A stretch of DNA of 64,000 nt from a virus. Its lineage: Duplodnaviria; Caudoviricetes. The stretch is taken from positions 12,985-76,984 of IMG/VR virus record IMGVR_UViG_2526164702_000004. One strand, written 5' to 3'. A program made the position numbers and the translations under genes. Below are positions 31,296-39,541 of this stretch, piece by piece. Under the pieces are notes generated by a model. It saw nothing but the letters and a program-made list of their open reading frames with translations. It was not told the DNA's origin and made no database searches. Position 1 is the first letter of the stretch; each line of letters opens with the position of its first letter.

Positions 31296-32684
31296 ATGTC
31301 TACGTTCTTTGCTCTCGTAATTTTATTTGTTCTATTCTGTTTCCCGTTTCTATTATATTTCTATTACAAAAAAGTAAAACAATTCAATGAGCTATATAAT
31401 AAGTATAAAGATATTATTGATTTAGAAAAACATAAGTCAAATGTCATTAACGAGACCGATGATTTGATACGCGAAAGGAATCGCAAACTGAATGAAATAC
31501 AAGTAGAGATTGATCAACTAAGAAAAGATTATTTAGAAAAAAGACAATTATTTGAAAACCTAATTCGTGAAGTCGCAATTTATGAAGACAAGTCTGAGAT
31601 TATAAGTCACGGTTTGTATAAACCTCATTTTGACTTTGATACTTCAGACGAATATAAAGAAGCACTTTTAGAGATAAGAGAATCTTGTAAAGAGATGATT
31701 AAATCCGAGACAGCAGCATCTGCTTCAGTTGCTTGGCATGTAAACGGAAGTTACACAGAAGGGAAAAAACAAACAAAACATTATATTAAGTTAATGCTCC
31801 GTGCATTTAATGGCGAATGCGATGCAATGATCGCTGATGTACGTTGGAATAATATCTCAAAAATGGAAGAACGAATAGCTAAGGTTCATGATGCGATAAA
31901 TAAATTAGGTGAAACACATTATATAAAAATTACAAACGATTACTATAGGTTAAAACTACAAGAATTACAACTTACTCATGAATATAGAGATAAAATTTAT
32001 CAAGAAAAACAGGAACAAAAGAGGATCCAAGAACAAATTCGTGAAGAAGAAAAGGTTCAAAGAGAAATTGAAAAGGCGTTAAGAGATTCAGAAGACGAAG
32101 AAAAACGATACACTAAGGCTTTGGAACAGGCAAAAAAAGAACTGGAAAAAGCCCAGGGCGAACAGTTGCAATTGGTCCAAGCAAAAATGGAAGCTTTGCA
32201 AAAAGAATTAGAGAATGCACAAAGCGCAAAACAAAGAGCCTTATCTTTAGCCCAACAAACAAAAGTAGGGCATGTATATGTAATATCTAATATAGGTTCG
32301 TTCGGAGAAAGTGTATTTAAGGTGGGGATGACACGGCGATTAGATCCAATGGACCGTGTAAAGGAATTAGGAGATGCGTCTGTTCCGTTTGAATTTGACG
32401 TTCACGCAATTGTTTATTCTGAAAATGCGCCTGAACTCGAAAAATTGCTTCATAAAAACTTTGATCATAAAAGAGTAAACCTTGTAAACAACCGAAAAGA
32501 ATTTTTTGAAATTACTCTGGATGAGATAGAGCAAATTGTAAAAAAACATAATGGTGATGTGCAATTTACAAAAGCAGCTGAAGCAAGGGAATATCGAGAG
32601 TCTATGAAAATTAAATTAAATCGTCAAAATACAAATGTATCTACAATGTCAAATGTCTTAGACTCCATACCGCAAAGTATATAG
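31296..32684 (+). CDS. DUF4041 + T5orf172 (GIY-YIG-like) membrane-anchored protein
   Basis: N-terminal TM, coiled coil, GHVYVISNIGSFGESVFKVGMTRRLDPMDRVKELGDASVPF. Confidence 0.85.
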   Translation: MSTFFALVILFVLFCFPFLLYFYYKKVKQFNELYNKYKDIIDLEKHKSNVINETDDLIRERNRKLNEIQVEIDQLRKDYLEKRQLFENLIREVAIYEDKSEIISHGLYKPHFDFDTSDEYKEALLEIRESCKEMIKSETAASASVAWHVNGSYTEGKKQTKHYIKLMLRAFNGECDAMIADVRWNNISKMEERIAKVHDAINKLGETHYIKITNDYYRLKLQELQLTHEYRDKIYQEKQEQKRIQEQIREEEKVQREIEKALRDSEDEEKRYTKALEQAKKELEKAQGEQLQLVQAKMEALQKELENAQSAKQRALSLAQQTKVGHVYVISNIGSFGESVFKVGMTRRLDPMDRVKELGDASVPFEFDVHAIVYSENAPELEKLLHKNFDHKRVNLVNNRKEFFEITLDEIEQIVKKHNGDVQFTKAAEAREYRESMKIKLNRQNTNVSTMSNVLDSIPQSI

Positions 32685-32777: not shown

Positions 32778-33173
32778 CTACTTTAAAAACGTTTCGATAA
32801 TCGTCTTAATTTTCTTTAAGTCTTCTGGCTGTATCTTTACAAGTATCTCTGCAATCTCGCATAATGTAGGATTATTAATAATCTTACGGGATAGTATGAT
32901 CCCTTTTTCAATCAGTTCTTTTTCTGCTTCTGTTACATTCAAAGGAGTTGTATTCTTTTCGGGTCCTATTCCTTTGTGTGTCCACTCTTTTCTAAATCCA
33001 TACTTTAGTTCGATTACGATAGTAATACGATCAGTCAAATCCCGTTTATTATTCTCGAGCTGACTTAAGAGCTCCTGACTGATTCCAATCGATTTCGCAA
33101 ATTCGTCCTGGCTGATTTTTTGCCCGGTTCCCTCTGTTCGTATGTATTTGATTCTTTCGCCTGGTGTGTTCAA
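32778..33173 (-). CDS. CI-like repressor (XRE HTH)
   Basis: GERIKYIR..SQDEFAKSIGISQELLSQLENNKR; divergent from the Cro-like gene. Confidence 0.8.
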   Translation of the reverse strand: MNTPGERIKYIRTEGTGQKISQDEFAKSIGISQELLSQLENNKRDLTDRITIVIELKYGFRKEWTHKGIGPEKNTTPLNVTEAEKELIEKGIILSRKIINNPTLCEIAEILVKIQPEDLKKIKTIIETFLK

Positions 33174-33275
33174 ATAAATATTTCTCTTTAATAAAATTTA
33201 CTTGTAAAATATTGCATTGTAATACATGGTCATCCCAGCAATTAAGCACCACAACGCACTGACAGGAGAGATAAA

Positions 33276-33521
33276 TTGAGCGTCGCAAAAAATCAAGGGC
33301 GAATTTGGCCCAAAGGTGTTATGTCCCGTGAAGAGATTAAGACGGAGCTGCAGTTTTTAAATAAAACTTATGATGTGATTTCTCACGAAACAGGAATGTC
33401 GTACGACGTTGTCCGCGGAACGATTGCGGGAAGAAAACGAAATGCCGTCGTTCTTCAGTATCTTACGAATCTTGGCATCGATCACGGAAGAACCCCAAGC
33501 CCGAGCCGCAAGGCAAGCTAA
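33276..33521 (+). CDS. Cro/Ner-like HTH protein
   Basis: KTYDVISHETGMSYDVVRGTIAG; first gene of the early operon. Confidence 0.7.
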   Translation: MSVAKNQGRIWPKGVMSREEIKTELQFLNKTYDVISHETGMSYDVVRGTIAGRKRNAVVLQYLTNLGIDHGRTPSPSRKAS

Positions 33522-33576
33522 GTAATATTAGAAAAACATAAAACGCTTCGTGGGTTCCCGACACACAGAGGCAACG

Positions 33577-33753
33577 ATGGAAAATTCGCAGAACAGAGAG
33601 ATAGAAAAAATTGAATACTTTTGGCAGTACAACAAGCACGGAATACAGCGGCCATTGTGTAGGGTACTGGCATTGTATCAGTGTGCTTATCTTCGGTACA
33701 TGATCGATTGGTTCAGGCCGCTGGAAGTAAGAGAGAAAGTAGTAAGGACTTGA
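33577..33753 (+). CDS. Small hypothetical protein
   Basis: 58 aa with RBS AGAGG. Confidence 0.45.
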   Translation: MENSQNREIEKIEYFWQYNKHGIQRPLCRVLALYQCAYLRYMIDWFRPLEVREKVVRT

Positions 33754-33789
33754 GAGATTTACGGGATATAGCAAAGATGGAATTGAGAG

Positions 33790-34047
33790 ATGGCAATAGA
33801 AAAGAAATTGATAACGGAAGCAATAAAGCGACGTCGTCAAAATATGGACACAGAGGCGGCGGATCGAGAAATGCTTATTCAGTATATTCGTCAATTCGTG
33901 GATTCGCAACGTGGGAATCAAAAACTTTTAGCCGAAGCAAGCTCTATTCCTCAGAACAAAATATCCAGTTTAATACGGGAGCGCAGCTTTTCACCCGGAA
34001 TGGATACGATCATAAAGCTTGCCGAAACAATACAAAATATCCAGTAA
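33790..34047 (+). CDS. Array HTH protein 1
   Basis: RGNQKLLAEASSIP-QNKISSL-...PGMDTIIKLAE. Confidence 0.85.
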   Translation: MAIEKKLITEAIKRRRQNMDTEAADREMLIQYIRQFVDSQRGNQKLLAEASSIPQNKISSLIRERSFSPGMDTIIKLAETIQNIQ

Positions 34048-34091
34048 GTGGATATTATTTACTTGACTTATATCCATCTTGTGGATATTTA
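34036..34091 (+). promoter_or_regulatory. Operator pair and promoter 1
   Basis: AATATCCA-N5-TGGATATT; TTGACT at 34063; ATATCCA-N5-TGGATAT. Confidence 0.85.
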
Positions 34092-34185
34092 ATCCCTCAC
34101 AACAATACCCCAACCCTTAACCAAACAAGCGAAAGAAGTAAGGACTTGAGAGATTTACGGGATATAGCAAAGATGGAATTGAGAG

Positions 34186-34428
34186 ATGAAAAATATACAC
34201 GATGTGATAACCAACCGAAAGAATTGTCTTCGGTCGGAAGCCGAAGAGAAAGAATATCTAATCGATTATATCCGGAAGTTTGTCGATGCCAAAAGGGGAA
34301 ATCAAAAACTTTTAGCGGAAGCAAGTGGCATTCGTCAGTCAACAATCTCCAATCTAATACGCAATGCAGGACCATCGCCCGGAATGGAAGTCATCATAGC
34401 TCTTGCCGAAGAAATTCAAAAAATTTAA
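34186..34428 (+). CDS. Array HTH protein 2
   Basis: Recognition-helix region QSTISNL. Confidence 0.85.
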   Translation: MKNIHDVITNRKNCLRSEAEEKEYLIDYIRKFVDAKRGNQKLLAEASGIRQSTISNLIRNAGPSPGMEVIIALAEEIQKI

Positions 34429-34475
34429 AGTTTAAATATTTAAATCTTGACAAATATTTAATTTTTAAATATATT
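34421..34475 (+). promoter_or_regulatory. Operator pair and promoter 2
   Basis: AAATTTA-N5-TAAATAT; TTGACA at 34447; ATATTTA-N5-TAAATAT; TATATT at 17-bp spacing. Confidence 0.85.
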
Positions 34476-34589
34476 CCCCACAACAATACCCCGATCCTTA
34501 ACCAAAATATGGCCGCATCTTTGTGCGCTCATGCAGTGTGAACTTTGTGTTGAGAGATTTAATGAGTGTGATAACAATGGAATTAAGAG

Positions 34590-34847
34590 ATGGCCACGAA
34601 AAAAGAAATGATCGATCAGGCAATAGAACGCCGACAGCACTGTTTGAATACAAGCGAATCGGATCGTGCGCTTATGATAGAATATATTCGGGAATTTGTA
34701 GAACTGAAACGCGGAAATCAAATTCTACTCGCACGGGAGAGTGGAATTCCTCAGTCCAAGATTTCGAATCTTCTCAATGGAACCGGCACATCTGCAGGAA
34801 TGGAGACGTTGGTAATCCTCGCACTTGCTGTAAAAAATATAACGTAG
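34590..34847 (+). CDS. Array HTH protein 3
   Basis: Recognition-helix region QSKISNL. Confidence 0.85.
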   Translation: MATKKEMIDQAIERRQHCLNTSESDRALMIEYIREFVELKRGNQILLARESGIPQSKISNLLNGTGTSAGMETLVILALAVKNIT

Positions 34848-34891
34848 CGTTATGTTTTTGCCTTGACAAATATATCGCTCAGGTATATATT
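34837..34891 (+). promoter_or_regulatory. Operator pair and promoter 3
   Basis: ATATAAC-N5-GTTATGT; TTGACA at 34863; ATATATC-N5-GGTATAT; TATATT. Confidence 0.8.
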
Positions 34892-35005
34892 AATCCCCAC
34901 AATACCCCGATCCTTAACCAAAATATGGCCGCATCTTTGTGCGCTCATGCAGTGTGAACTTTGTGTTGAGAGATTTAATGAGTGTGATAACAATGGAATT
35001 GAGAG

Positions 35006-35278
35006 ATGGCAAAAAAAGAAACGAAAGAGCAATCAATCGAAGAGATTATTGCACACAGGCGGAACTGTCTGGACACGGAAGAGTCAGACAAGGAAGCACT
35101 GACGGAGTACGTTCGCCAGTTTGCAAAAGCGAAGAGGGGAAACACAATTCTTCTTTCGCGCGAAAGTGGAATTCCTCAGTCCAAAATATCGAATCTATTA
35201 AACAAAACAGGATCATCTCCTGGAATGGAAACTTTAATCATTCTTGCTCAAACTATAAAAAATATACCAACTCGGTAA
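35006..35278 (+). CDS. Array HTH protein 4
   Basis: Recognition-helix region QSKISNL, same as protein 3. Confidence 0.85.
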   Translation: MAKKETKEQSIEEIIAHRRNCLDTEESDKEALTEYVRQFAKAKRGNTILLSRESGIPQSKISNLLNKTGSSPGMETLIILAQTIKNIPTR

Positions 35279-35316
35279 CATTTTTAATTGACAAATGTAC
35301 CAAGCCGGTATATATT
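35262..35316 (+). promoter_or_regulatory. Operator pair and promoter 4
   Basis: ATATACC-N5-GGTAACA; TTGACA at 35288; ATGTACC-N5-GGTATAT; TATATT. Confidence 0.8.
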
Positions 35317-35430
35317 AATTCCCACAATACCCCGATCCTTAACCAAAATATGGCCGCATCTTTGTGCGCTCATGCAGTGTGAACTTTGTGTTGAGAGATT
35401 TAATGAGTGTGATAACAATGGAATTGAGAG

Positions 35431-35694
35431 ATGGCAATAGAAAAAGAAACGATCGATCAGGCAATAGAACGCCGACAGCACTGTTTAGATACAAGCGAAT
35501 CGGATCGTACACTTATGATAGAATATATTCGGGAATTCGTAGAACTGAAGCGTGGAAACCAAAGACGTCTTGCAGAAGCAAGCAGTGTTCCGGAATCCAG
35601 AATATCCAATCTCTTAAAAAATACCGGTGTCAGTCCGGGGATAGAAATAATACTTATCCTTGCCCAAAATGCAAAAAAGTTATTATCGCAATAA
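35431..35694 (+). CDS. Array HTH protein 5
   Basis: Recognition-helix region ESRISNL. Confidence 0.85.
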   Translation: MAIEKETIDQAIERRQHCLDTSESDRTLMIEYIREFVELKRGNQRRLAEASSVPESRISNLLKNTGVSPGIEIILILAQNAKKLLSQ

Positions 35695-35731
35695 CTTTTT
35701 ATCTTGACAAACTTAATAAAACAATAAGTTT
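35676..35731 (+). promoter_or_regulatory. Operator pair and promoter 5
   Basis: AAAGTTATT-N5-AATAACTTT (perfect); TTGACA at 35704; AAACTTAAT-N5-AATAAGTTT. Confidence 0.85.
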
Positions 35732-35753
35732 TATTCCTTACAATACCCCGACC

Positions 35754-35784
35754 AAAAATAAAAAAGCCCGGCGGCAACCGGGCT
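35754..35784 (-). terminator. Intrinsic terminator oriented on the minus strand
   Basis: AGCCCGG-N6-CCGGGCT hairpin with the A-tract on its left (U-tract on the minus strand). Confidence 0.65.
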
Positions 35785-35867
35785 CCGAGGTAAACTTACG
35801 TTTAACACCTAAGCGTTTTTTATCTCCTCTTTTATTTGCGGTCAACCAAAAAATTTAGGAGATACCT

Positions 35868-36062
35868 ATGACCCCAAGATACTACCTGTCAGACCGTGCC
35901 CGGATTGCGTTTGAATGTTTCGAGATCCGCAACGGATACAAACCAAACCACAAAGAGCAAGTTGAGATATTGCGAAACGAAGGGTTTAACCCGGCAACAA
36001 TTGCTTTTTTTATGCAATGTGTTCACACAACTCCCAGGCATTCCAGTGAGGTGTTCGCATGA
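35868..36062 (+). CDS. Small hypothetical protein within the array
   Basis: 64 aa; strong RBS AGGAGA. Confidence 0.6.
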   Translation: MTPRYYLSDRARIAFECFEIRNGYKPNHKEQVEILRNEGFNPATIAFFMQCVHTTPRHSSEVFA

Positions 36063-36107
36063 AGGCATTGATAAAAATCAAACAAAGTCCGATAATGGAT
36101 AGGAGAC

Positions 36108-36368
36108 ATGTCGAAGAAAGAGACGATAAAACAAATTATCGAACACAGACGGAAGTGTGTGGATACAGAAGAGTCAGACAAGGAAGCGCTGACAGAATAT
36201 ATTCGGGAATTTGCAAAAGCGAAGAGGGGAAATACAATTCTTCTTTCGCGCGAGAGTGGAGTTCCGGATGCCAAAATCTCAAACCTGTTAAATCAAAGTG
36301 GATTCCCTCCAGGAATGGAAATAATTTTAAAGCTTGCCGAAACAATACAAAAACTACAAAATCTATAG
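36108..36368 (+). CDS. Array HTH protein 6
   Basis: Recognition-helix region DAKISNL. Confidence 0.85.
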   Translation: MSKKETIKQIIEHRRKCVDTEESDKEALTEYIREFAKAKRGNTILLSRESGVPDAKISNLLNQSGFPPGMEIILKLAETIQKLQNL

Positions 36369-36402
36369 ATTTAGTCCTTGACAATTCTACAGAAACTATA
36401 GC
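36352..36402 (+). promoter_or_regulatory. Operator pair and promoter 6
   Basis: CTACA-N5-TATAG twice, flanking TTGACA at 36378. Confidence 0.8.
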
Positions 36403-36484
36403 TTATAGCACCTCATACAACTTAGGAGGTGCTATATGAAACAGTTGAGTGAATCAACTCAGTTTCCGATAATGGATGAGAGAC

Positions 36485-36745
36485 ATGTCGAAGAAAGAGA
36501 CGATAAAACAAATTATCGAACACAGACGGAAGTGTGTGGATTCGGAGCAAGAACACCGCGAAGCGTTAATAGAATACATTCGAGAGTTTGTGCGGGCGAA
36601 ACGCGGGAACACAGCTTTACTTACTCAACAAACCGGCATTCCCGGATCACGAATATCCCATCTTGTAAACAACACAGGCCGTCCTCCTGGAATGGATGGA
36701 CTCCTAACTTTAGCCGAAGCAATAACAAAACTGCACAAAGTGTAA
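36485..36745 (+). CDS. Array HTH protein 7
   Basis: Recognition-helix region GSRISHL. Confidence 0.85.
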   Translation: MSKKETIKQIIEHRRKCVDSEQEHREALIEYIREFVRAKRGNTALLTQQTGIPGSRISHLVNNTGRPPGMDGLLTLAEAITKLHKV

Positions 36746-36782
36746 ATTTATTCCTTGACAATGTTGCACATTGTGCAACATT
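36730..36782 (+). promoter_or_regulatory. Operator pair and promoter 7
   Basis: TGCA-CAAAG-TGTA; TTGACA at 36755; AATGTTGCA-N5-TGCAACATT (perfect). Confidence 0.8.
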
Positions 36783-36861
36783 CTGCACCTCATACAACTT
36801 AGGAGGTGCTATATGAAACAGTTGAGTGAATCAACTCAGTTTCCGATAATGGATGAGAGAC

Positions 36862-37122
36862 ATGTCGAAGAAAGAGACGATAAAACAAATTATCGAACAC
36901 AGACGGAAGTGTGTGGATTCGGAGCAAGAACACCGCGAAGCGTTAATAGAATACATTCGAGAGTTTGTAGAACAGAAACGAGGAAACACAGTTCTTCTTT
37001 CACAACAAACAGGAATTCCAGTTTCGCGTATCTCCAATCTGGTCAACAACTCTGGCCGACCTCCGGGCATGGACGGACTTCTAACGCTTGCGGAGGTAAT
37101 TCAAAAAGTACACAATGTTTAG
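36862..37122 (+). CDS. Array HTH protein 8
   Basis: Recognition-helix region VSRISNL. Confidence 0.85.
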   Translation: MSKKETIKQIIEHRRKCVDSEQEHREALIEYIREFVEQKRGNTVLLSQQTGIPVSRISNLVNNSGRPPGMDGLLTLAEVIQKVHNV

Positions 37123-37160
37123 ATTTATTTATTGACAAAAATAAACATTGTGTAGATATT
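37107..37160 (+). promoter_or_regulatory. Operator pair and promoter 8
   Basis: TACA-CAATG-TTTA and its inverted copy TAAA-CATTG-TGTA flank TTGACA at 37132. Confidence 0.8.
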
Positions 37161-37189
37161 CGCACCTCATACAACTTAGGAGGTGCAGC

Positions 37190-37327
37190 GTGAACCCCGA
37201 CACAGACCACCAAATGGACGCACTACGTAATATCGTCCAACTATCTCAAGACGTGCAGGCTGTCCGTAACTGGATTGATGCGAGTGAGCAAATTGCAGAA
37301 ACCCCGTTAACCGAGGTGGAGCAATGA
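37190..37327 (+). CDS. Small hypothetical protein within the array
   Basis: 45 aa; GTG start with RBS AGGAGG; stop/start overlaps at both ends. Confidence 0.55.
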   Translation: MNPDTDHQMDALRNIVQLSQDVQAVRNWIDASEQIAETPLTEVEQ

Positions 37328-37372
37328 ATTGCTTGAGTAAAATCTTAGAAATTCCGAAAATAGGAATAACAC

Positions 37373-37651
37373 ATGTCTTTAACAGACGAACAAATAAAAA
37401 AGACGATTCCCGCAATTATTCGTCAAAGACGAGAGAGTATCTCAAGAGAAGACATCGACAAACAGATGTTAGTCGATTATATCCGATACTTTGTCAATTT
37501 AAAACGTGGAAATGCGGCTCTTCTTGTAAAGGAGACAAAATTTCCTTCTGGAAATTTATCTCGTCTTATTTCCGGCGAGGGTGCTCAACCGTCCTTCGAG
37601 CGAATTCTTTCTATCGCCGAAACTGTTCAAATTCTGCTAAAAAAGCAGTAA
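37373..37651 (+). CDS. Array HTH protein 9 (most divergent)
   Basis: LVDYIRYFV..KRGN...SGNLSRL...PSFERILSIAE. Confidence 0.8.
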   Translation: MSLTDEQIKKTIPAIIRQRRESISREDIDKQMLVDYIRYFVNLKRGNAALLVKETKFPSGNLSRLISGEGAQPSFERILSIAETVQILLKKQ

Positions 37652-37686
37652 TAATTCTTGACAAAAAACCTTCTATAATAGCAGTT
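37633..37686 (+). promoter_or_regulatory. Operator pair and promoter 9, upstream of the recombination/replication genes
   Basis: CTGCT-N5-AGCAG; TTGACA at 37658; CTTCT-N5-AGCAG. Confidence 0.75.
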
Positions 37687-37715
37687 TTCTTTTGCTGCTT
37701 TAAGGAGGCATTGTC

Positions 37716-38033
37716 ATGACATTCAAAGAAGATCAGCAAATGAGCCAGTTAAAAAAACTCATTAGTGAGTCCTCGATAAGCTTGTTGTCTTTGTCGGTTA
37801 ACGGGATCTCACTTGATGACGTTATGCGCGTGGAAAAACAAAAACAGAACGTAAAAGAATCTCGTGCCCGTCTCCGTGCTTTGTTTGTGAGTTACAGACA
37901 GACAATCAGGTATCTCAAAGGGCAAGTCAAAGAGCGTGATGAGGCACTCATGGTGCTCCGTGCGGAGACGGATGCAATGGCGGACGTGATTACGGACATC
38001 AAAAAATCGTACGGCTTCAAGGCGGTGGTGTGA
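37716..38033 (+). CDS. Coiled-coil hypothetical protein
   Basis: 105 aa; RBS AAGGAGG. Confidence 0.65.
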   Translation: MTFKEDQQMSQLKKLISESSISLLSLSVNGISLDDVMRVEKQKQNVKESRARLRALFVSYRQTIRYLKGQVKERDEALMVLRAETDAMADVITDIKKSYGFKAVV

Positions 38034-38842
38034 TGGAAGAAAATTCAATTGTAAGAGCAGATAATCCTGTTGAGCAGATGCGTCGGGCGACTGATGTCGC
38101 TGGTGCGTGTCGTGAGATAGTGAACCGAACCGTGCAAGAAATCCAGGGTAAAAAATACATTAGAGTTGAGGGTTGGCAGGCAATATGTAACGCTCACGGT
38201 TGTGCGGCCTCGTCTGGATCTGTAGAGAGAGTCGAGGGTGGATTTCGCGCAATTGGTCAGATCCGTAGGCGATCAGATGGTGTCGTGATTGCCGAGGCAG
38301 AGGGCTTCATTGGTGACGACGAAAGTTCTTGGAGTGGTAGGCCAGAATACGCAAAAAGAGCAATGGCCCAAACCCGAGCGATTTCACGGGCTTGTAGATC
38401 TGCATTTGCGCATGTTGTAGTATTAATAGACGAAAATCTATTGACTACACCGGCTGAAGAAGTTCCGGCATCGGACGCGAATCCCTCAGCCGAAACTTCA
38501 AAAAAATCTAATACAACTAAACCTACTGAAGTATCGCCCGAAACTCCTATCGGAAAACCGGCCTCAAAAGAACACAAGGAAGCGTTTTTTAAGACTAACG
38601 GTAAAGCGACGTTTATCTCGAATTTTGGAGTTGAGATACTCAAGATCGACGGCACGTATCTCTACGTTCCAGTCGGTAGTTATAAAAAGCAGCAGGCTGG
38701 ACAACCGATCGATTTAACGCCTCCAGCGAGTTCGCCTAAAACCAACTCGGAAAAACCTGTCAATGGAACGGCTACTGAACTCGCTGGAGTAGGGGCAGGA
38801 ACAAAGCCGGCTGTCAGTGATGACGAGGAGGATTTATTCTAA
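38030..38842 (+). CDS. Putative single-strand annealing recombinase
   Basis: KKYIRVEGW...AMAQTRAISRACRSAF; acidic DDEEDLF tail; adjacent to the Gp157-like gene. Confidence 0.55.
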   Translation: MMEENSIVRADNPVEQMRRATDVAGACREIVNRTVQEIQGKKYIRVEGWQAICNAHGCAASSGSVERVEGGFRAIGQIRRRSDGVVIAEAEGFIGDDESSWSGRPEYAKRAMAQTRAISRACRSAFAHVVVLIDENLLTTPAEEVPASDANPSAETSKKSNTTKPTEVSPETPIGKPASKEHKEAFFKTNGKATFISNFGVEILKIDGTYLYVPVGSYKKQQAGQPIDLTPPASSPKTNSEKPVNGTATELAGVGAGTKPAVSDDEEDLF

Positions 38843-39357
38843 TGGCTGCACTCGCAACATTCAAACTATTCGAACTCAACGATCTGTATTATCAGACACT
38901 CTACTCCGCGATTAATCCGGACACGGGTGAAATTGTAGATGAGGTTCTTGCGGAGAAGTTGAACGAGATCGTTGAAGCAAAGGAAAAGAAACTCCTCAAT
39001 CTTGGGTGCATATATTGCGAACTCGAACTTGAGGCAGCAGCTTTAAAATCAAAAGAAGCCAATCTTAAAAAGAGGAGAGAGGCCCTTGAAAAAAGGTATA
39101 AGAGCCTTTTAAGATTTATTAAAGCTAATCTGCAAGAGGGGACTAAACTCAAAGACGATCGAGTTAAGCTCTATTGGCGCAAAAGCGAATCCTTGGATGT
39201 AAAAATACCTGATAATCAACTCCTTACCGTACTCGGCGAAGAGTTTACAAAAATTGAATATAGCCCAATGAAAAATGAACTCAAGGCTGCTATTAAATCA
39301 GGGAGATCATTTAAGGGTGTCGAGTTAATAGAGAATCAAAATCTACAAATAGATTAA
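38842..39357 (+). CDS. Siphovirus Gp157-family protein
   Basis: DPxTGEI..K.LN..YCELE..ALK.KE..L..RR..WRKSESL..K.AIKSG...GVELIENQNLQI. Confidence 0.8.
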   Translation: MAALATFKLFELNDLYYQTLYSAINPDTGEIVDEVLAEKLNEIVEAKEKKLLNLGCIYCELELEAAALKSKEANLKKRREALEKRYKSLLRFIKANLQEGTKLKDDRVKLYWRKSESLDVKIPDNQLLTVLGEEFTKIEYSPMKNELKAAIKSGRSFKGVELIENQNLQID

Positions 39358-39367
39358 GGAGCTATGC

Positions 39368-39541
39368 ATGGATAATCAAAAGAGAGATAGAATTAGAATT
39401 TTGAATCAATACGACGCGCTCTTTGATGATAAGTGTGATGAATCATTGGATGAGGTCACTCACATCATTGCAGGACTTATAGAGATCGACGAAGACCTAA
39501 TTCGTCAGACCGTCCTCGAGAGATGGTACGAGGCCGCATAA
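39368..39541 (+). CDS. Small acidic hypothetical protein
   Basis: 57-aa ORF with RBS AAGGAG. Confidence 0.5.
   Translation: MDNQKRDRIRILNQYDALFDDKCDESLDEVTHIIAGLIEIDEDLIRQTVLERWYEAA

What the first reader, a model, noticed from the sequence alone, without database searches (positions are those of the whole stretch)
33681..37719. A second reading frame stays open across all nine HTH genes
Seen in the sequence: the same relative frame (HTH start is +1 to it) has no stop codon through any of the nine divergent genes. The ORFs are 33681-34541, 34523-34957, 34939-35382, 35364-35858, 36059-36439, 36436-36816, 36813-37193 and 37324-37719. In units 6-9 this frame has strong RBSs (AGGAGG, GAGGTG) and is chained by ATGA/GTGA stop-start overlaps from 35868 through to the 37716 gene. 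In AT-rich, Lys/Glu-rich genes this frame normally fills with TAA and TGA stops. Inference: selection maintains continuous ribosome traffic (anti-polarity or translational coupling that could also dampen HTH translation), or these are real overprinted Arg/Ser/Cys-rich peptides.
Basis: partly seen in the sequence, partly recalled or inferred. Interest (0 to 1): 0.8.

Follow-up and report, generated by a model that had tools for sequence, protein, structure and literature searches.

The report
Stop-free bridge frame across repressor cassettes
In a Leptospira prophage, nine tandem small repressor genes each lie inside a second reading frame that selection keeps free of stop codons and joins stop-to-start to its neighbours, most likely so that ribosomes can ride across each repressor-promoter cassette to the next gene rather than to make a useful protein.

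Summary
All nine HTH genes have no stop in the frame that starts one base upstream. Synonymous shuffles predict about 38 stops, and the phage's other genes predict about 74. T|AA, T|AG and T|GA codon junctions occur 0 of 233 times, while T before other purine-start codons is common. HTH third positions are near saturation, so the units count almost independently.

The frame is also open in all 55 distinct cassette sequences from about 20 related Leptospira prophage contigs. It is not open in three distant homologues outside such arrays.

The frame runs through each downstream promoter/operator tail. Indels there keep phase. It ends at the next ORF's start, with NTGA overlap at seven window junctions. 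From 33681 to 39357 only 9 bases lie outside a chained ORF.

The peptides are not conserved (pN/pS 1.7, against 0.28 for the HTH frame) and do not fold (pLDDT 36 against 84.5). At most junctions the next Shine-Dalgarno site is locked in a hairpin.

Best reading (0.6): translated pass-through ORFs selected for ribosome passage. No expression data exist. Other first readers noted this same stretch, and the scan has noted bridge ORFs on other DNA. I class it as a new variant of a known kind.

The parts
33790..34047 (+). HTH cassette gene 1 (85 aa, XRE-like)
   Evidence: 0 stops in the alt frame, 7 in the +1 frame.
34186..34428 (+). HTH cassette gene 2 (80 aa)
34590..34847 (+). HTH cassette gene 3 (85 aa)
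35006..35278 (+). HTH cassette gene 4 (90 aa)
35431..35694 (+). HTH cassette gene 5 (87 aa)
36108..36368 (+). HTH cassette gene 6 (86 aa)
36476..36745 (+). HTH cassette gene 7 (89 aa; may start at ATG 36485)
36853..37122 (+). HTH cassette gene 8 (89 aa)
37373..37651 (+). HTH cassette gene 9 (92 aa), the most divergent unit
33681..34541 (+). Bridge ORF over units 1 and 2 and their promoter tails (286 codons from GTG; an in-frame ATG lies at 33777)
34523..34957 (+). Bridge ORF over unit 3. Possible starts are GTG at -19 from the previous stop, or in-frame ATGs at 34562 and 34577.
34939..35382 (+). Bridge ORF over unit 4
35364..35858 (+). Bridge ORF over unit 5. Its TAG stop lies inside the SD (TAGGAGA), 9 nt before the 64-aa gene's ATG.
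35868..36062 (+). Ordinary 64-aa gene, a link of the chain, conserved in relatives
36059..36439 (+). Bridge ORF over unit 6 (126 codons), GAGGTG SD, ATGA overlap at both ends
36436..36816 (+). Bridge ORF over unit 7 (126 codons), AGGAGG-N6-ATG, ATGA overlap at both ends
36813..37193 (+). Bridge ORF over unit 8 (126 codons), ATGA at its start and GTGA at its end
37190..37327 (+). N-terminal fragment of a 125-aa gene that is intact in relatives.
37324..37719 (+). Bridge ORF over unit 9 (131 codons), ATGA overlap at both ends
37716..38033 (+). C-terminal fragment of the split 125-aa gene (105 aa), GTGA overlap to the next gene
38030..38842 (+). 270-aa early gene. Its C-terminal half matches the ERF-type proteins of relatives. 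It is the downstream beneficiary of the chain.
36409..36432 (+). SD-locking hairpin GCACCUC / GAGGUGC after unit 6. The same element follows unit 7 (about 36786-36809) and unit 8 (about 37163-37186).
34447..34475 (+). Consensus-like promoter TTGACA-17-TATATT after unit 2. Equivalent sites lie at 34863-34891, 35288-35316 and 37132-37160. The bridge frame reads through all of them.

Best explanation
Each HTH gene and its downstream promoter/operator tail form a cassette. Each cassette sits inside a translated pass-through ('bridge') ORF in the frame one base upstream of the HTH frame.

The bridge ORF starts at, or within about 20-40 nt of, the stop of the preceding ORF. In units 6-9 it has a strong SD and an NTGA overlap. 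It runs out of frame across the whole HTH gene and through the promoter, operator and SD of the tail. It stops on the start codon of the next ORF.

What is selected is uninterrupted translation, not the peptide. Ribosomes crossing the cassette keep the long early transcript covered, which would protect it from polarity. They also melt the hairpin that locks the next SD, which would give translational coupling by RNA unfolding and termination-reinitiation. In this way the downstream early genes (the 64-aa gene, the 125-aa gene, the ERF-type recombinase and Gp157) stay expressed despite the inserted repressor cassettes.

Shown here: stop exclusion, conservation of the open frame, phase-preserving indels, junction geometry, lack of peptide constraint, and SD hairpins. 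Inferred: that the frame is translated, and that coupling or anti-polarity is the selected benefit.
For: 1. The nine genes have 0 stops where about 38 are expected. Stop-forming junctions number 0 of 233.

2. HTH third positions differ at 0.58 on average, near saturation, so the units are close to independent.

3. All 55 distinct cassette sequences (about 20 types) from Leptospira prophage contigs have 0 stops in this frame and 3-11 in the other. Pooled stop-forming junctions are 0 of 1412, against 28% T at comparable junctions.

4. Distant homologues that are not in cassettes have 9, 18 and 2 stops, as shuffles predict.

5. The promoter tails total 298 codons with 0 stops in this frame, against 19 and 25 in the other frames and 18.9 in shuffles. 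TTGAC lies at +4, +7, +10, +13, +16 or +19 from the HTH stop, always in the same phase. The three apparent exceptions at +11 are an earlier TTTAC match of the search pattern.

6. Junctions: seven have -4 (NTGA) spacing, one -1, one +9 and three -19 (or +21 to an in-frame ATG). Only 9 nt between 33681 and 39357 lie outside a chain ORF. The same chain is present in L017 and L022.

7. pN/pS is 0.28 in the HTH frame and 1.71 in the bridge frame. AF2 gives pLDDT 36 for the bridge product and 84.5 for the HTH protein.

8. The next SD is paired with an upstream anti-SD arm. Mean duplex energy is -11.6 kcal/mol, against -4.9 for other SD-led genes of the phage.

9. Spacings from -4 to about +40 nt support coupling, and Rho acts on untranslated RNA (PMC12548453). 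This left-shifted frame is the only forward frame that can be cleared of stops by single synonymous changes (PMC6884476).
Against: There is no direct evidence of translation; no RNA reads could be laid (see Tried and rejected).

The downstream ORFs have strong SDs, and most cassettes seem to carry their own promoter. On the face of it, coupling and anti-polarity are therefore not obviously needed.

The region is G-rich rather than C-rich (GC skew mostly at or above 0), so it is not a typical Rho loading substrate.

The SD-hairpin signal rests on only about 4-6 independent junction types. It is weak for the unit 9 type (z -0.7) and absent in the leaders of units 2-5. At those junctions the listed GTG start overlaps by 19 nt, a spacing at which coupling is inefficient.

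A disordered, fast-evolving peptide with a composition-dependent function would give the same pN/pS and pLDDT.
Confidence: 0.6

Rival explanations
1. The alternative-frame ORFs are real overprinted genes. Their basic, Ser/Arg/Asn/Cys-rich, disordered products have a function of their own, such as nucleic-acid binding or modulation of the HTH repressors.
For: The ORFs are longer than synonymous shuffles allow and are conserved as ORFs in all homologous cassettes. That is the standard signature of an overlapping gene. They have strong SDs and proper starts in units 6-9. All have pI 9.1-10.6. A gene caller picked them in related contigs.
Against: pN/pS is 1.71, and HTH-synonymous sites are near saturation, so the peptide sequence drifts freely. 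pLDDT is 36 with no secondary structure. No Pfam hit was found. The architecture is not conserved: one ORF may span one or two cassettes, giving 126 to 286 codons. About a quarter of each product is just the translation of promoter, operator and SD. The basic composition follows automatically from reading Glu/Asp/Lys codons one base early.
Confidence: 0.2
2. The selected effect is control of HTH translation. Ribosomes loaded at the strong upstream start run over the weak, out-of-frame HTH start and set repressor output, either by occluding it or by activating it through unfolding.
For: The bridge start lies 13-50 nt upstream of every HTH ATG. HTH starts have poor or badly spaced SDs (GAGAG abutting the ATG, or GGAGAC-ATG), while bridge starts have AGGAGG-N6-ATG.
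Against: Occlusion needs only the first few dozen codons. It does not explain stop exclusion over the whole gene, the 298 stop-free tail codons, phase-preserving indels in the tails, or termination exactly on the next start. This may well be a side effect rather than the main cause.
Confidence: 0.12
3. The open frame is an accident. It was inherited from one stop-free ancestor of recently duplicated units, or it follows from codon or dinucleotide bias.
For: The units are paralogues. Some leaders and N-termini are nearly identical, for example units 7 and 8, and the leaders of units 3-5.
Against: Third-position divergence is near saturation. T before AT, AC, GC, GG and GT is common, so there is no general TpA or TpG avoidance. 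Other genes of the phage carry 9.3 stops per 100 codons in this frame. Distant homologues have the expected stops. Zero of 1412 junctions form a stop across 55 sequences.
Confidence: 0.01
4. Programmed frameshifting links the two frames, either -1 from the HTH frame into the open frame or +1 the other way. This would produce fusion proteins, as in IS3-type orfA/orfB.
For: The open frame is the -1 frame of a small HTH gene. Units 3 and 4 have A6 and A7 runs near the 5' end.
Against: No slippery site is conserved across the nine units. The open frame has its own SD and start upstream. The HTH frame is closed by stops just upstream of its ATG. There is no downstream catalytic domain.
Confidence: 0.03

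Closest known systems
Translational coupling of adjacent genes through NTGA overlaps (termination-reinitiation) and through unfolding of an SD-sequestering hairpin (review PMC12548453)
   Same: Seven junctions have -4 spacing. An SD lies just upstream inside the preceding ORF, and the SD is paired with an upstream complementary arm.
   Different: Here the upstream partner is not a protein-coding gene in the usual sense. It is a stop-free frame laid over another complete gene plus a promoter/operator. This is repeated nine times and kept open by synonymous codon choice.
Ambigrammatic narnaviruses: a stop-free companion ORF kept open by synonymous codon choice, where translation itself may be what matters (PMC6884476, PMC8316113)
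   Same: Stops are excluded from a second frame by codon choice within a conserved protein. The companion product is not conserved. The proposed benefit is ribosome occupancy. PMC6884476 derives that the left-shifted forward frame used here can always be cleared of stops by synonymous changes.
   Different: Those are eukaryotic RNA viruses and the companion frame is on the opposite strand. Here the frame is on the same strand in a DNA prophage operon, modular, and tied to stop/start coupling with its neighbours.
Phage P4 nested genes eta/kil, whose translation across the immunity region controls Rho-dependent termination (Forti et al. 1999, J Bacteriol; cited from my own knowledge and from earlier scan notes; paper not read here)
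   Same: An ORF spans a regulatory region of an early operon, and its translation rather than its product is thought to protect downstream transcription.
   Different: P4 has a single ORF over RNA immunity elements. It does not overprint protein-coding repressor genes and is not a repeated cassette. Rho dependence was not tested here.
MIRU-type intercistronic repeats in mycobacterial operons, whose small ORFs overlap the flanking genes' stop and start (Supply et al. 1997, Mol Microbiol; cited from my own knowledge and an earlier scan note; paper not read here)
   Same: An inserted modular element carries an open frame joined at both ends to the flanking ORFs. Polycistronic translation is therefore not interrupted.
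   Different: MIRUs are 40-100 bp non-coding repeats. Here each module is about 380-430 bp and contains a complete regulator gene in another frame plus a promoter.
Classical same-strand embedded phage genes (lambda Rz1 in Rz, phiX174 E in D, MS2 L); cited from my own knowledge
   Same: One complete gene lies inside another ORF on the same strand in a different frame.
   Different: In those cases both products are functional proteins. Here the outer ORF shows no sign of selection on its product.

Membership tests
XRE / Cro-C1 type HTH regulators (for the nine embedded genes) | Match to the Pfam HTH_3 (PF01381) profile above its gathering score | tested here: inconclusive
   Scores are 16.6-18.9 bits against a cut-off of 23. 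Two of the four tested units gave no hit. The database's precomputed hits list PF01381 for several homologues, and NCBI names them XRE family.
XRE / Cro-C1 type HTH regulators (for the nine embedded genes) | Helical fold with a helix-turn-helix superposable on solved Cro/C1/SinR domains | tested here: met
   AF2 gives pLDDT 84.5, with helices at 43-51 and 55-62. The top Foldseek hits are the SinR N-domain, Aca11, C.Esp1396I, 434 Cro and P22 c2, with TM 0.5-0.65 and probability up to 1.0. E-values are only 0.15-1.
Overprinted (dual-coding) protein gene | The ORF in the second frame is longer than expected under synonymous-codon shuffling of the host gene | tested here: met
   Observed 0 stops against 2.2-7.2 expected per gene; P(0) from 0.05 to below 5e-5
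Overprinted (dual-coding) protein gene | Openness is conserved in homologues | tested here: met
   55 of 55 distinct cassette sequences are open
Overprinted (dual-coding) protein gene | Purifying selection on the second product (depressed synonymous rate in the host frame, pN/pS below 1 in the second frame) | tested here: not met
   HTH pS reaches 0.6-0.9 between units. Pooled pN/pS in the bridge frame is 1.71.
Overprinted (dual-coding) protein gene | A detectable product (proteomics or ribosome footprints) | not testable with these tools
   No RNA or ribosome data could be laid on the stretch
Translationally coupled operon chain | Stop/start spacing within the effective range (-4 to about +40 nt) | tested here: met
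   Spacings are -4 at seven junctions, -1 at one and +9 at one. Three junctions have -19 to a GTG, or +21 and +36 to in-frame ATGs. The effective range is taken from PMC12548453.
Translationally coupled operon chain | The downstream SD or start is sequestered in a structure that upstream translation would melt | tested here: inconclusive
   Hairpins are seen in most tails. Mean duplex energy is -11.6 against -4.9 kcal/mol in 8 control rows (6 distinct gene starts), with mean z of -2.1. There are only about 4-6 independent junction types, two of them weak, and none in the unit 2-5 leaders.
Translationally coupled operon chain | Downstream expression depends on upstream translation | not testable with these tools
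   Needs reporter assays
Rho-polarity suppression by a translated spanning ORF (P4 eta/kil type) | A Rho-dependent terminator inside the spanned region | not tested
   No tool is available for rut sites. GC skew at or above 0 argues weakly against a strong C-rich loading site.
IS3-type programmed -1 frameshift between an HTH orfA and a -1 frame | A conserved slippery heptamer at the frame junction | tested here: not met
   A-runs occur in only 2-3 of the 9 units, and there is no common motif

The most novel reading that the evidence does not exclude
The cassettes are 'translationally transparent' portable regulatory modules. Each is a repressor gene plus its promoter/operator, built so that it can be stacked or dropped anywhere into a coupled operon, even inside a gene as unit 9 is, without breaking ribosome flow. 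Each cassette ends in an SD locked by an anti-SD arm. On read-through transcripts the next ORF is then translated only if a ribosome has crossed the cassette in the bridge frame. Transcripts that start at the cassette's own promoter may lack the locking arm and be translated freely. This would be a general design rule for inserting regulators into phage operons.
Probability: 0.3. Interest if true: 0.85.

Novelty: new variant of a known kind. Interest (0 to 1): 0.7.

Why it matters
This is an unusually clean natural case of selection acting on the openness of a reading frame rather than on its product. Across about 20 diverged cassette types, 0 of 1412 junctions form a stop, and there are built-in negative controls.

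If the bridge reading holds, phage operons can absorb whole regulator-promoter modules without polarity. That would explain how arrays of heteroimmune repressors can build up in front of essential early genes.

It is also a warning for annotation. Gene callers pick the long meaningless ORF in some contigs and the true HTH gene in others.

The system is directly testable with stops that are silent in the HTH frame.

Tried and rejected
- blastn of the array against the phage collection found no match.
- A genome-contig scan with unit 9 found no relative.
- RNA evidence: no RNA holder was listed. Four same-species RNA runs laid 0 reads on 33000-39400. This is no test of expression.
- A first test of SD sequestration by pairing probability was not discriminating. 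Shuffled upstream sequence already pairs the purine-rich SD at 0.73, against 0.84 observed. I replaced it with duplex energies and a control gene set.
- The leaders of units 1-5 show no significant fold (z -0.3 and +0.2). The hairpin mechanism cannot be claimed there.
- The tails of units 5, 6, 7 and 9 did not pass the promoter scan; in my own reading of units 6, 7 and 9 the -10 element or its spacing is non-canonical. Only the sites after units 2, 3, 4 and 8 passed the scan. Unit 1 looks canonical by eye.
- Frameshift fusion, chance or paralogy, and general TpA avoidance were considered and rejected (see rivals).
- Literature searches found no description of these Leptospira arrays or of same-strand bridge frames over repressor genes. 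The P4 eta/kil and MIRU papers could not be retrieved and are cited from memory.

Full report
**What the window is.** The window is part of a 76,984-bp IMG/VR virus record with direct terminal repeats. Homologues of the small genes are annotated as XRE-family regulators in Leptospira interrogans, L. noguchii, L. santarosai, L. kirschneri and L. alexanderi. The related loci are prophage-type contigs of 30-71 kb. The array lies between a divergent cI-like repressor (32778-33173, minus strand) and early recombination genes (an ERF-type gene and Sipho_Gp157).

**Check of the observation.**
- The nine paralogous genes of 80-92 aa and the listed alternative-frame ORFs are at the stated coordinates.
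- In the frame that starts one base upstream of the HTH frame, every gene has 0 stops. The other forward frame has 4-10 stops and the reverse frames 1-6.
- Shuffling synonymous codons within each gene gives 2.2-7.2 expected stops per gene, 38.5 in total. P(0) ranges from 0.05 to below 5e-5.
- A stop in this frame needs a T-ending codon followed by AAN, AGN or GAN. Those junctions occur 0, 0 and 0 times out of 233 opportunities. T|AT occurs 26 times, T|GC 19, T|GT 16, T|GG 14 and T|AC 8. The avoidance is therefore specific to stop triplets in this phase and is not a dinucleotide bias.
- Other long ORFs of the same phage carry 9.3 stops per 100 codons in this frame, which would give about 74 over the 792 HTH codons.
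- Paralogy does not explain the result. Mean p-distance between units is 0.42, 0.27 and 0.58 at codon positions 1, 2 and 3, so synonymous sites are close to saturation.

**Conservation.**
- The bridge ORF over unit 6 finds called 126-aa homologues in other assemblies.
- Those contigs, and 18 IMG/VR loci found with units 4 and 9, carry arrays of 1-7 units. Many units are mosaics recombined around the invariant KRGN motif.
- I extracted 55 distinct nucleotide versions, about 20 protein types. All have 0 stops in this frame and 3-11 in the other.
- Pooled, stop-forming junctions are 0 of 1412, while T occupies 447 of 1597 (28%) comparable junctions.
- As a negative control, an exhaustive profile search gave distant homologues with the same RGN motif in unrelated metagenomic phage contigs. 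These have 9, 18 and 2 stops in this frame, matching shuffle expectations of 10.2, 22 and 4.4. In one of them (L032) the HTH gene is itself the coupled member of the operon chain.
- The open frame is thus a property of the Leptospira cassette arrangement and not of the protein family.

**The frame extends beyond the HTH genes.**
- After each HTH stop comes a TTGACA-type promoter with unit-specific inverted repeats. The scan scores 11 of 12 after units 2-4 and 10 of 12 after unit 8.
- The bridge frame reads through these tails. They total 298 codons with 0 stops, against 19 and 25 in the other frames and 18.9 in shuffles.
- TTGAC lies at +4, +7, +10, +13, +16 or +19 from the HTH stop in 51 of the 54 distinct tails, always in the same phase. 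The three apparent exceptions at +11 are an earlier TTTAC match of the search pattern, not a real shift. Indels in this 'intergenic' DNA therefore come in threes.
- Each bridge ORF ends at the next start:
  - as (A/G)TGA preceded by AGGAGG-like SDs;
  - as TAG inside the SD, 9 nt before the 64-aa gene's ATG;
  - or, in units 1-4, as a TGA that lies 19 nt after a GTG and 21 and 36 nt before in-frame ATGs.
This is the N-terminal fragment of a 125-aa gene that is intact in relatives. Cassette 9 sits inside that gene, and 37716-38033 is its C-terminal fragment.
- From 33681 to 39357 only 9 nt are outside a chain ORF. L017 and L022 show the same chain around other cassette types and insertion points.

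**Is the product selected?** The evidence says no.
- Pooled over 100 moderately diverged pairs, the HTH frame has pN/pS 0.28 and the bridge frame 1.71 (single pairs).
- AF2 with an alignment gives pLDDT 36.2 and essentially no secondary structure for the bridge product. The HTH protein gets 84.5 and a four-helix HTH fold. That fold resembles SinR, Aca11, C.Esp1396I and 434 Cro.
- The bridge products have no Pfam hits and are uniformly basic and hydrophilic. That composition follows from reading Glu, Asp and Lys codons one base early.
- Their architecture varies: one ORF can span one or two cassettes.

**Why would it need to be open to the end?**
- RNA folding of the tails shows that the SD of the next ORF is paired with an upstream complementary arm. 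Different cassette types use different sequence pairs: GCACCUC/GAGGUGC, UCUCCU/AGGAGA, CCCUUC/GAAGGG and CCCACC/GGGAGG.
- SD-to-upstream duplex energies average -11.6 kcal/mol (mean z -2.1 against shuffles). Other SD-led genes of the phage average -4.9 kcal/mol (z -0.1).
- This fits the RNA-unfolding model of translational coupling. The -4 spacings fit termination-reinitiation (PMC12548453). The same review notes that untranslated operon RNA invites Rho-dependent polarity.
- The signal is moderate. There are few independent junction types, it is weak for the unit 9 type, and it is absent in the leaders of units 2-5.
- An occlusion effect on the weakly initiated HTH genes is plausible. It cannot explain openness over the whole cassette.

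**Comparison with known systems.**
- The frame used here is exactly the one forward frame that can always be cleared of stops by single synonymous changes (PMC6884476, section on forward frames).
- The idea that translation itself, not the product, is selected has been raised for ambigrammatic narnaviruses (PMC8316113).
- Phage P4 eta/kil and mycobacterial MIRUs are further parallels. I cite both from memory, and earlier notes of this scan also name them.
- I found no description of these Leptospira arrays or of same-strand bridge frames over complete repressor genes.
- Other first readers noted the same stretch. The scan has reported bridge ORFs over antisense morons and inserts on other DNA. 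Those are unchecked leads and do not count as support.

**Verdict.** A functional disordered peptide remains possible at 0.2. Translation itself is not shown. I class this as a new variant of a known kind and score interest at 0.7.

Noticed in passing
window 37282-37327 and 37764-37814: Cassette 9 is inserted inside a 125-aa gene that is intact in relatives (L013:10378-10755). A 51-nt segment of that gene around the insertion point is present in inverted orientation just downstream of the cassette (92% identity). Imperfect inverted repeats lie at 37298-37314 and 37794-37810. This suggests an inversion or an inverted target duplication at insertion.
   Followed up: partly
window 35763-35786 (minus strand): A strong intrinsic-terminator-like hairpin (10 bp, 6 GC, followed by a T-run) points against the operon direction. 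It lies inside the tail of the bridge ORF over unit 5. No minus-strand gene is nearby.
   Followed up: no
window 33790-37651; L010-L031: The cassettes are mosaic. N-terminal halves (with the upstream leader) and C-terminal halves (with the downstream promoter/operator) recombine around the invariant KRGN motif. For example, L013:9373 combines the unit 3 N-part with the unit 5 C-part, and L015:6001 combines the unit 4 N-part with the unit 6 C-part. Array size varies from 1 to 7 units in relatives and is 9 here.
   Followed up: partly
window 36409-36432, 36786-36809, 37163-37186; 35820-35865: The SD of the next ORF is paired with an upstream anti-SD-like arm. For the promoter after unit 8, the predicted transcription start falls inside that arm. 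Promoter-initiated transcripts might therefore escape the lock.
   Followed up: partly
window 33174-33789: About 600 nt between the divergent cI-like repressor and unit 1 hold two conserved small ORFs: 33276-33521 (TTG start, ending ...GRTPSPSRKAS) and 33550-33753. Gene callers left them uncalled in L013. The first could be the Cro-like partner.
   Followed up: no
L032:1119-1660 (metagenome phage contig): In a distant relative the homologous HTH gene is a normal coupled member of the early operon, with ATGA overlap to the upstream gene. It is followed by a 290-nt untranslated gap before genes leading to ERF. This is a plausible ancestral layout without a bridge frame.
   Followed up: partly
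proteins P0038, P0040, P0043, P0050, P0067: The profile search found long proteins (263-1156 aa) with 3-10 separate stretches matching this HTH profile. These may be fused tandem HTH arrays.
   Followed up: no
window 31296-32684: A 462-aa protein lies just upstream of the immunity region. Its counterpart in L013 carries precomputed SNIPE, T5orf172 and MUG113 domain hits.
   Followed up: no
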